Source: Escherichia coli (lineage in GTDB: Bacteria > Pseudomonadota > Gammaproteobacteria > Enterobacterales > Enterobacteriaceae). Taken from it: a stretch of 64,000 nt of DNA. How positions within the stretch are numbered: the first letter of the stretch is position 1; every line of letters starts with the position of its first letter. The stretch is taken from assembly GCF_046105845.1 (NCBI RefSeq), contig NZ_CP151004.1; one strand, 5' to 3'. The notes beneath the pieces were generated by a model. It was not told the origin of the DNA. It did no database searches and saw nothing but the letters and a program-made list of their open reading frames with translations. Shown piece by piece: positions 48,599 through 49,140 of the stretch. The position numbers and the translations under genes are program-made.

Positions 48599-48975
48599 GA
48601 AGCTGACCAGACAGTCGCCGCTTCGTCGTCGTCCTCTTCGGGGGAGACGGGCGGAGGGGAGGAAAGTCCGGGCTCCATAGGGCAGGGTGCCAGGTAACGC
48701 CTGGGGGGGAAACCCACGACCAGTGCAACAGAGAGCAAACCGCCGATGGCCCGCGCAAGCGGGATCAGGTAAGGGTGAAAGGGTGCGGTAAGAGCGCACC
48801 GCGCGGCTGGTAACAGTCCGTGGCACGGTAAACTCCACCCGGAGCAAGGCCAAATAGGGGTTCATAAGGTACGGCCCGTACTGAACCCGGGTAGGCTGCT
48901 TGAGCCAGTGAGCGATTGCTGGCCTAGATGAATGACTGTCCACGACAGAACCCGGCTTATCGGTCAGTTTCACCT
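48599..48975 (+). ncRNA. rnpB: RNase P RNA component (M1 RNA), 377 nt
   Basis: Begins gaagctgaccagacagtcgccgcttcgtcgtcgtcctcttcggggga and ends cggtcagtttcacct; contains the conserved ggaaagtccgggctcc and acagaacccggcttatcgg blocks. Confidence 0.97.
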
Positions 48976-49140
48976 GTTTTACGTAAAAACCCGCTTCGGC
49001 GGGGTTTTGCTTTTGGAGGAGCGGAAAGATGAATGACTGTCCACGACGCTATACCCAAAAGAAAGCGGCTTATCGGTCAGTTTCACCTGGTTTAACGAAA
49101 ACCCGCCAGCGTAAACTGGCGGGTTTTTGCTTTTTGGAGC
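48928..49140 (+). repeat. Tandem duplication of the rnpB 3' end plus terminator (two units of about 95-110 bp)
   Basis: gatgaatgactgtccacgac...gcttatcggtcagtttcacctg...acg(t)aaaaacccgc..gcgggtttttgcttttggag occurs twice (about 48928-49020 and 49027-49140), each with its own hairpin plus T-run. Confidence 0.85.

What the first reader, a model, noticed from the sequence alone, without database searches (positions are those of the whole stretch)
48928..49140. Tandem duplication of the rnpB 3' end and terminator directly downstream of M1 RNA
The last ~45 nt of mature M1 RNA plus its hairpin terminator are repeated as a second, diverged unit about 100 bp downstream, each unit with its own stem and T-run. 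This gives two consecutive terminators and a second copy of the 3' processing-site context. It may be a redundant termination device or a recombination substrate, and it sits next to the AT-rich yhaC-yhaB segment.
Basis: seen in the sequence. Interest (0 to 1): 0.35.

Follow-up and report, generated by a model that had tools for sequence, protein, structure and literature searches.

The report
Known terminator repeats behind rnpB
The last 50 bases of the RNase P RNA gene and its stop signal are copied once more just downstream; the repeat is real, but it is a long-known, copy-number-variable array found in E. coli and related gut bacteria, not a new feature.

Summary
rnpB lies at 48599-48975 (+). 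Its last 50 nt, its terminator and a short junction (unit 1, 48926-49026) recur as unit 2 (49027-49147). A 16-nt stub of a third unit follows (49148-49163). Gapped self-alignment scores 106, against 16.4 +/- 1.9 for shuffles. The similarity lies mainly outside the hairpins, which are of two different types.

The copy differs from the gene by 12 extra nt (49048-49059) and by CC->AG in the P4 strand. It is therefore a pseudo-3' end.

This is the array I recall as described for E. coli K-12 in 1983 (Reed & Altman, cited from memory). K-12 units align one-to-one with the window's unit.

- **Copy number:** sampled E. coli genomes carry 1 to 5 copies, and about two thirds of 5,426 complete genomes have at least one extra unit.
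- **Other genera:** the same unit, insert included, follows rnpB in other Escherichia species, Salmonella (7 copies), Citrobacter and Klebsiella.

Most likely it is an old minisatellite that changes length by unequal recombination. Each unit carries an intrinsic terminator. The window's second hairpin is strong on both strands, 75 nt past the convergent yhaC stop codon.

An integrase-scar origin, small-protein genes and a structured RNA were tested and not supported. The finding is already known and of low interest.

The parts
48599..48975 (+). rnpB (M1 RNA, RNase P RNA class A), mature 377 nt
   Evidence: Rfam RF00010, 318.6 bits, model positions 1-367 of 367; annotated as rnpB at the same position in the near-identical locus L002
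48926..49026 (+). Unit 1 (native, 101 nt): last 50 nt of M1 RNA, spacer, terminator A and junction GGAGGAGCGGAA
   Evidence: Repeat families D1-D3 and D5; gapped alignment; unit decomposition
48990..49014 (+). Terminator A: stem CCCGC/GCGGG with a TTCG loop, then GTTTTGCTTTT. The U-run is shortened by a T->G change compared with the other sampled E. coli alleles
   Evidence: Terminator scan; fold of 48976-49026, -16.0 kcal/mol, z -1.3; allele comparison
49027..49147 (+). Unit 2 (121 nt): pseudo-3' end of M1 (A' box, 12-nt insert, B' box), spacer, terminator B and junction
   Evidence: aligns column for column with K-12, Salmonella, Citrobacter and Klebsiella downstream units
49048..49059 (+). 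12-nt insertion GCTATACCCAAA, absent from M1 RNA and present in every full downstream unit aligned (11 nt in Klebsiella). It is followed by AGAAAGCGG where M1 has AGAACCCGG
   Evidence: unique in the window
49098..49135 (.). Terminator B: perfect 12-bp stem AAAACCCGCCAG/CTGGCGGGTTTT with a CGTAAA loop, an A-run on the left and a T-run on the right. It is probably bidirectional and lies 75 nt beyond the yhaC stop codon
   Evidence: Inverted repeat I4, 100% complementary; terminator scan; -26.4 kcal/mol (z -4.1) on + and -24.7 kcal/mol (z -4.7) on -
49148..49163 (+). Stub of a third unit (AAGATGAATAAATATC); right edge of the array
   Evidence: Repeat family D2, 81%; the same stub ends the array in all sampled E. 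coli alleles, including single-copy ones
48928..49032 (+). Small ORF of 34 codons starting inside M1 RNA (MNDCPRQNPAYRSVSPVLRKNPLRRGFAFGGAER). Probably not a gene
   Evidence: no NCBIfam match
49029..49154 (+). Small ORF of 41 codons in unit 2, with GGAGG 9 nt upstream. Probably not a gene
49203..50390 (-). yhaC (convergent neighbour, AT-rich)
   Evidence: ORF list; YhaC family protein at the matching position in L002; GC 0.27-0.36

Best explanation
The segment is a two-unit allele of the tandem array that follows rnpB in E. coli and related Enterobacteriaceae. A unit has three parts: a copy of the last 50 nt of M1 RNA, an intrinsic terminator, and a junction of about 13 nt. In downstream units the M1 copy carries 12 extra nt and a mutated P4 strand.

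Shown here:
- The array is old. Salmonella, Citrobacter, Klebsiella and several Escherichia species share it, with the same insert and the same unit boundaries.
- Its copy number differs between strains, from 1 to at least 7.
- The spacer after the mature 3' end is genus-specific, yet within a genus the native and downstream units share it. That is the mark of concerted evolution.

Inferred:
- Length changes arise by unequal homologous recombination or replication slippage between units.
- Gene conversion from the strongly constrained native gene keeps the two boxes nearly invariant.
- Functionally, each unit adds one more rho-independent terminator behind a strongly transcribed gene.
- In this window the second hairpin is a strong symmetric terminator. 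It most likely stops both rnpB read-through and the convergent yhaC transcript.
- The downstream copy cannot replace the M1 3' end, because the P4 3' strand (CCCGG) reads AGCGG and the P2-to-P4 linker is 12 nt longer.
For: Repeat and significance. Hairpins with T-runs. Stability of the second hairpin on both strands. Copy numbers, counting the native copy: 1 in L004, L005 and L010; 2 in the window, L002 and L009; 3 in L003; 4 in K-12 L001 and in L007; 5 in L008. Population scale: 3,657 of 5,426 complete genomes have a place covering at least 80% of an insert-bearing unit, and there are 13,013 places in 5,398 genomes, median 2, maximum 9. Other taxa: E. albertii (partial unit), E. whittamii, Escherichia sp. 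E1V33 and MOD1-EC7003, Citrobacter (three species), K. pneumoniae, K. aerogenes (stub only) and S. enterica Senftenberg with 7 copies. Unit alignment: A' 20/20, insert 16-19/19 and B' 20-21/21 identical between genera, with genus-specific spacers and junctions. Hairpin upkeep: the native E. whittamii hairpin has a compensatory C-G to T-A change (CCTGCCAG/TTGGCAGG against CCCGCCAG/CTGGCGGG; read).
Against: No transcript data were available, so termination at either hairpin, in either direction, is inferred. The window's first terminator has a shortened U-run (GGGGTTTTGC), and its fold is not better than shuffles (z -1.3). Distal hairpins decay in some arrays, for example the last K-12 unit and the downstream E. 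whittamii unit. Back-up termination therefore cannot be under strong selection everywhere. One third of E. coli genomes do without any extra unit. The near-identity of the 19-nt insert region across genera is not explained by conversion from rnpB. BLAST place counts are only an approximate copy number, because the native copy is not always seeded. The attribution to Reed & Altman 1983 rests on memory, because the paper is not in the held library.
Confidence: 0.78

Rival explanations
1. The repeats are scars or attachment-site duplications left by integrative elements that target the 3' end of rnpB, as happens at tRNA and tmRNA genes.
For: The rnpB 3' end is a real integration site. A roughly 7.5-kb islet (tyrosine integrase, flagellin, fliC repressor) lies between attL GGCTTATCGGTCAG|CTTCAACTTC and attR CCTGACTTATCGGTCAG|TTTCACCTG in L011. 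Its integrase is found in 19 of 5,426 genomes. In several species the array ends just after the same core: within 5 nt of GGTCAG in E. whittamii, E1V33 and SCPM-O-B-8794, and immediately after it in K. pneumoniae.
Against: Nothing lies between the window's repeats. The repeat extends 28 nt upstream of the core, and the islet's attR lacks the A' box and the insert. In 5 of 5 inspected genomes the islet sits in the native copy, never in a downstream unit. Unit boundaries are identical across genera, which argues for one origin. No viral contig carries the unit-specific sequence. Phage and plasmid hits are chromosomal fragments or terminator-only matches.
Confidence: 0.06
2. Each unit encodes a small basic peptide of about 34-41 aa, translated from the ATG in AGATGAAT. 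This is my recollection of what was proposed for K-12.
For: The frame starting at that ATG is open through the unit in almost all units translated across genera (the native Citrobacter R56 copy stops after 16 codons). E. coli junctions carry GGAGG 9 nt upstream. Units of 113, 116 or 121 nt end at a TGA that overlaps the next ATG.
Against: GGAGG is absent from the Salmonella and Klebsiella junctions. In Klebsiella the insert is 11 nt, so the same conserved nucleotides are read in another frame (AAYRSVSP becomes RLIGQFHL). The variable sites among units mostly change the amino acid, read (R/H, Q/R, D/G, T/V). There was no NCBIfam match. The first such ORF lies inside M1 RNA itself.
Confidence: 0.05
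3. The 60-nt pseudo-3' domain (A'-insert-B') is itself a functional RNA or DNA element. For example, it could mimic the protein-binding J18/2-P2-J2/4 region of M1 RNA, or act as an alternative partner for the M1 5' strand in read-through precursors.
For: Identity between genera is 57-60 of 60, including 16-19 of 19 in the insert region that rnpB cannot supply by conversion. The domain stays intact even in edge units whose hairpin has decayed. Many junctions carry GGRCAG, complementary to CUGUCC of the next A' box, with G.U in E. coli and A-U in Klebsiella and Citrobacter.
Against: The domain has no fold better than shuffles (-12.7 kcal/mol, z -0.25). After pairwise realignment the rest of the unit is also 76-80% identical, so the excess conservation of the insert is marginal: my own binomial estimate from the counts is about 0.05 for 18 of 19. 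The GGRCAG motif is missing from the window's own junction and from several species. Only a partial RNase P hit reached a low E-value in Rfam (19.2 bits). A third of E. coli genomes lack the units.
Confidence: 0.08
4. The similarity is chance, or is limited to two unrelated GC-rich terminator hairpins.
For: Tandem Repeats Finder returned nothing.
Against: The alignment score is 106 against a shuffle maximum of 24. The identical blocks lie outside the hairpins, and the hairpins themselves differ. The same units occur in thousands of genomes.
Confidence: 0.01

Closest known systems
The 113-bp repeats in the 3' flank of the E. coli K-12 M1 RNA gene (Reed & Altman 1983, PNAS 80:5359; a Salmonella counterpart in Baer & Altman 1985, Science 228:999). 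Both are cited from memory and were not retrievable here.
   Same: Same locus, same unit content (M1 3' end, rho-independent terminator, small ORF) and same sequence. The K-12 units in L001 align position by position with the window's unit 2.
   Different: The window has one downstream unit plus a 16-nt stub. K-12 has the native copy plus three units, the last one degenerate and split by a REP pair. The window's second hairpin is the longer type B, giving a 121-nt unit instead of 113 nt.
Tandem intrinsic terminators behind strongly expressed stable-RNA operons, such as rrnB T1-T2 (own knowledge)
   Same: Consecutive hairpin plus U-run signals sit behind a highly transcribed RNA gene, and a symmetric hairpin is usable from both directions.
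   Different: Here the terminators multiply by duplication of a unit that includes part of the gene, and their number varies between strains. Efficiency was not measured.
Direct repeats of the 3' end of tRNA or tmRNA genes that flank integrated genomic islands (att sites)
   Same: The 3' end of a stable-RNA gene is duplicated. rnpB really is used this way by the flk islet, with core CTTATCGGTCAG (islet function from PMC3378880).
   Different: In the window nothing is integrated between the copies, the repeat is head-to-tail, it extends well upstream of the core, and it includes the terminator.
Bacterial minisatellites (VNTR loci) used for MLVA typing of E. coli and Shigella
   Same: The unit is about 100 bp, intergenic, and polymorphic in copy number among strains.
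   Different: It is not one of the published ms06-ms32 loci. None of their primers lies in the window, although ms32 also has a 101-bp unit.

Membership tests
rnpB 3'-flank repeat array (K-12 '113-bp repeats') | Starts inside the 3' end of rnpB and continues head-to-tail directly downstream | tested here: met
   rnpB at 48599-48975; units at 48926, 49027 and 49148
rnpB 3'-flank repeat array (K-12 '113-bp repeats') | Unit sequence homologous to the K-12 units, including the 12-nt insert absent from M1 RNA | tested here: met
   Window unit 2 matches K-12 unit 1 at all of the first 60 nt; only the hairpin type differs
rnpB 3'-flank repeat array (K-12 '113-bp repeats') | Each unit contains a rho-independent terminator motif | tested here: met
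   Two terminator-like sites on the + strand at 48990-49003 and 49096-49129; folds
rnpB 3'-flank repeat array (K-12 '113-bp repeats') | The published description (3.5 copies of 113 bp, ORFs with ribosome-binding sites) corresponds to what is seen in K-12 | tested here: inconclusive
   K-12 locus L001 shows the native copy, two 113-nt units and one degenerate unit, plus ORFs behind GGAGG. This fits my memory of the paper, but the paper could not be read.
Intrinsic (rho-independent) terminator | GC-rich hairpin immediately followed by a U-run | tested here: met
   The second hairpin has z -4.1 on + and -4.7 on -. The first is a 5-bp GC stem with a UUCG loop and an interrupted U-run.
Intrinsic (rho-independent) terminator | Transcripts actually end there | not testable with these tools
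Minisatellite / VNTR | Copy number differs among strains of one species | tested here: met
   1, 2, 3, 4 and 5 copies in 11 E. coli loci; 1 to 9 BLAST places per genome
att-site duplication by an integrative element | The two repeats flank an element that carries, or once carried, an integrase | tested here: not met
   The window copies are adjacent, with only a terminator and a 12-nt junction between them. The real islet in L011 has a much shorter repeat.
att-site duplication by an integrative element | The repeat is limited to the recombination core and the gene part 3' of it | tested here: not met
   The repeat begins 28 nt upstream of the core CTTATCGGTCAG and includes the terminator
Small-protein gene | Reading frame and peptide conserved among relatives, with a ribosome-binding site | tested here: not met
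   The frame is shifted in Klebsiella and GGAGG is absent outside E. coli; no family match

The most novel reading that the evidence does not exclude
The downstream units may be kept for more than their terminators. The 60-nt pseudo-3' domain (J18/2-like AGAUGAAUGA, P2 3' strand, lengthened J2/4, P1 3' strand) is almost invariant from Escherichia to Klebsiella, including 19 nt that rnpB cannot donate. It could act in read-through transcripts as a mimic of the protein-binding corner of M1 RNA, or as a competing partner for the M1 5' strand. That would couple terminator read-through to RNase P assembly or level.
Probability: 0.06. Interest if true: 0.6.

Novelty: already known. Interest (0 to 1): 0.15.

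Why it matters
It matters little for new biology. To my recollection, the repeat has been in the literature since the rnpB gene was first sequenced.

It has some practical value:
- Annotation pipelines should not call the units rnpB fragments or pseudogenes.
- The array is a ready-made length marker. About two thirds of E. coli genomes have extra units, with 1 to at least 5 copies.
- It can collapse or expand in short-read assemblies.

Two side results are worth recording. The array is shared by several enterobacterial genera, with both hairpin types. The rnpB 3' end also serves as the attachment site of the flk flagellin islet.

Tried and rejected
1. Tandem Repeats Finder found nothing. Seeded repeat search and gapped alignment were needed instead.

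2. Literature. The 1983 and 2008 papers are not in the held library. Full-text searches for rnpB with repeats, yhaC, MLVA, integration site or phase variation gave nothing on the repeat.

3. The idea that this is MLVA locus ms32 (101-bp unit) was rejected, because none of the ms06-ms32 primers lies in the window.

4. My first idea was that the duplication arose in E. coli by slippage between the AGATGAAT in rnpB and an ancestral AGATGAAT 101 nt downstream, which is present in single-copy alleles. I rejected it as the origin. The array, with the same insert, exists in other genera. The stub is therefore a truncated unit, and single-copy alleles are more likely collapsed arrays.

5. An attP origin was not supported. 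There was no exact match of the unit-specific 28-mer in viral contigs. Phage and plasmid hits were host chromosome fragments, mislabelled chromosomes or terminator-only matches.

6. Units acting as decoy attB sites was not supported. The islet sits in the native copy in all 5 genomes inspected.

7. Small proteins were not supported. There was no family match, and the frame is not conserved.

8. A structured RNA in the pseudo-3' domain was not supported (z -0.25). At a relaxed threshold Rfam gave only a partial RNase P hit and terminator-driven noise.

9. I first judged the insert far more conserved than the rest of the unit. After pairwise realignment the rest is 76-80% identical, so the excess is marginal.

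Full report
**What is there.**
- Rfam places a full-length class A RNase P RNA gene at 48599-48975 on the + strand (318.6 bits). garK ends just upstream.
- The AT-rich yhaC gene (49203-50390) converges from downstream.
- The sequence AGATGAATGACTGTCCACGAC at 48926-48946, inside M1 RNA, recurs exactly at 49027-49047.
- CGGCTTATCGGTCAGTTTCACCTG, which contains the mature 3' end, recurs 113 nt further on. The T-runs recur as well.
- A gapped local alignment of the two halves scores 106. Three hundred shuffles gave 16.4 +/- 1.9, with a maximum of 24.
- Neither box occurs elsewhere in the 64-kb window.

**Anatomy.**
- Unit 1 (48926-49026, 101 nt) holds the last 50 nt of M1 RNA, a spacer, hairpin A (CCCGC-TTCG-GCGGG followed by GTTTTGCTTTT) and the junction GGAGGAGCGGAA.
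- Unit 2 (49027-49147, 121 nt) repeats the M1 part with 12 extra nt (GCTATACCCAAA, 49048-49059). It reads AGAAAGCGG where M1 has AGAACCCGG. It then carries hairpin B, a perfect 12-bp stem AAAACCCGCCAG/CTGGCGGGTTTT around CGTAAA.
- A 16-nt stub of a third unit (49148-49163) ends the array.
- From established RNase P structure, the changed bases lie in the 3' strand of helix P4, and the insert lies in the linker between P2 and P4. The copy is therefore a pseudo-3' end, not a spare one (inference).
- The Rfam consensus has 12 positions at this very spot that E. coli M1 RNA lacks. I note this without explaining it.

**Folding.**
- Hairpin B is very stable on both strands: -26.4 kcal/mol (z -4.1) on + and -24.7 kcal/mol (z -4.7) on -. 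It sits 75 nt beyond the yhaC stop codon, so it probably ends transcripts from both directions (inferred).
- The fold of the hairpin A region is not better than shuffles (z -1.3). In this window its U-run is shortened by a T->G change not seen in the other sampled alleles.
- The 60-nt pseudo-3' domain alone has no special structure (z -0.25).

**Variation within E. coli.**
- All but one of 5,426 complete genomes match the region.
- In eleven loci read in full, the number of copies, counting the native one, is as follows:
  - 1 in L004, L005 and the O157:H7 locus L010;
  - 2 in the window, L002 and L009;
  - 3 in L003;
  - 4 in K-12 L001 and in L007;
  - 5 in L008.
- A 113-nt K-12 unit finds 13,013 places in 5,398 genomes (median 2, maximum 9). 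In 3,657 genomes one place covers at least 80% of it, which means at least one insert-bearing unit.
- Place counts are approximate, because megablast does not always seed the native copy.
- Hairpin types A and B are shuffled among positions. For example, the native unit of L009 has type B. This is what unequal exchange between units would produce.
- K-12-type alleles have a REP pair inside their last, degenerate unit.

**Beyond E. coli.** One scan of species-representative genomes with the shared 22-mer returned 25 loci.
- Downstream units with the same boundaries and the same insert follow rnpB in E. whittamii, Escherichia sp. E1V33 and MOD1-EC7003, two GTDB representatives labelled E. coli, three Citrobacter species and K. 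pneumoniae (insert of 11 nt).
- E. albertii has a partial unit.
- Kluyvera, Kosakonia, S. enterica subsp. arizonae and subsp. diarizonae have none.
- Records filed as plasmids, but carrying garK and tdcA, add S. enterica Senftenberg with 7 copies, another K. pneumoniae with 4, and K. aerogenes with only a stub.
- Both hairpin types occur in Salmonella as well as in Escherichia.
- Between genera, the first 60 nt of downstream units are 57-60 of 60 identical. The spacer after the mature end and the junction are genus-specific, yet within a genus the native and downstream units share them.
- That pattern points to an old array evolving in concert, not to recent transfer.
- The insert region (16-19 of 19 identical) cannot be maintained by conversion from rnpB. 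However, the rest of the unit is also 76-80% identical after realignment, so the excess is marginal.

**Integrative elements.**
- In L006/L011 a tyrosine integrase gene starts 223 nt after rnpB.
- The roughly 7.5-kb element carries a YagK/YfjJ gene, a Hin-like recombinase, a flagellin gene and a fliC repressor.
- It is bounded by GGCTTATCGGTCAG|CTTCAACTTC and CCTGACTTATCGGTCAG|TTTCACCTG.
- This matches the flk islet, whose 486-aa tyrosine recombinase excises it between direct repeats (PMC3378880). The integrase here is 1,461 nt long.
- The integrase occurs in 19 genomes, 16 of them at 95% identity or more.
- So rnpB is used like a tRNA gene. The islet supplies a new 3' end (GGUCAGCUUCAACU) that turns the G4.U pair of P1 into G-C (read).
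- This does not explain the array:
  - the islet's right end lacks the A' box and the insert;
  - the islet lies in the native copy in all five genomes inspected;
  - no viral contig holds the unit-specific sequence.

**Small ORFs.**
- Almost every unit translated, in every genus, is open from the ATG of AGATGAAT. E. coli junctions offer GGAGG 9 nt upstream, and many units stop at a TGA overlapping the next ATG.
- The ribosome-binding motif is absent in Salmonella and Klebsiella.
- The Klebsiella insert shifts the frame while the nucleotides stay the same.
- Differences among units mostly change the amino acid.
- No family matches.
- I therefore do not regard these ORFs as genes.

**Comparison with what is known.**
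- To my knowledge this is the array described as a 113-bp sequence repeated three and a half times after the K-12 M1 RNA gene (Reed & Altman 1983). A shorter counterpart was described in Salmonella (Baer & Altman 1985).
- I could not retrieve either paper, so the attribution rests on memory. It also rests on the exact correspondence of the K-12 locus with that description.
- The array is not the MLVA locus ms32.

**Verdict.** The feature is real and correctly read by the first stage, but it is already known and of low interest. The one loose end is the near-invariance of the pseudo-3' domain across genera.

Noticed in passing
L011 (NZ_CM194533.1) 453-7995; also L006, L041-L044: A flagellin phase-variation islet (486-aa tyrosine integrase, YagK/YfjJ, Hin-like recombinase, fliC-type flagellin, fliC repressor) is integrated in the last 10 nt of rnpB. 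The core is CTTATCGGTCAG, and the M1 3' end is rewritten to GGUCAGCUUCAACU. It occurs in 19 of 5,426 complete E. coli genomes and sits in the native copy in all five inspected.
   Followed up: partly
L001 (K-12) about 2330-2560; also L003, L007, L008, L009: K-12-type alleles have a pair of REP elements (GCCGGATGCGGCGTGAACGCCTTATCC ... GGCCTGATAAGCGTAGCGCATCAGGC) inserted in the last, degenerate repeat unit. The window lacks this.
   Followed up: no
window 49004-49007, compared with L001-L010: The window's rnpB terminator reads GCGGGGTTTTGC where every other sampled E. coli allele reads GCGGGTTTTTGC. This shortens the U-run and breaks the A/U extension of the stem.
   Followed up: no
window 49150-51700; L005, L015, L023, L025, L033: GC drops to 0.27-0.36 exactly at the right edge of the array. 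yhaC and yhaB are missing in non-coli Escherichia, where the array abuts the tdcR-side sequence. They are largely deleted in an O1:K1:H7 strain. The AT-rich block therefore looks like a lineage-specific insertion next to the array.
   Followed up: partly
L037 (S. Senftenberg) 2173-2960; L001, L009, L015: The two hairpin types (short TTCG-loop type; long CAG...CTG type) and a G/A polymorphism at the first insert base (GACGCT/GACACT) are each found in both Escherichia and Salmonella arrays.
   Followed up: no
window 48946-48947 / 49048-49059; Rfam alignment: The Rfam RNase P class A consensus has 12 positions between the P2 and P4 3' strands that E. coli M1 RNA lacks. The downstream units carry 12 extra nt at exactly that point.
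   Followed up: no
L021 (Citrobacter sp. Awk 4), about 60-280 nt after the second B box; L017 (S. enterica subsp. arizonae), rnpB terminator: A palindromic insertion of about 170 nt interrupts a repeat unit in Citrobacter Awk 4. In S. arizonae foreign sequence is inserted inside the rnpB terminator hairpin (CCCGCTTCGGCG|CTGAGGGATCCCC...).
   Followed up: no
unit junctions, e.g. L001 2128-2165, L038 2606-2640: Many junctions carry GGRCAG, complementary to CUGUCC of the following A' box (G.U in E. coli, A-U in Klebsiella and Citrobacter). This would form a P2-like hairpin. The motif is absent from the window's own junction and from several species.
   Followed up: partly
search results: Several records in the phage and plasmid collections that match the unit are chromosomal: 0.7-5.4 Mb 'plasmids' carrying garK-rnpB-tdcA, an S. 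houtenae contig, and low-coverage 'Salmonella phage S.Kent' contigs.
   Followed up: partly
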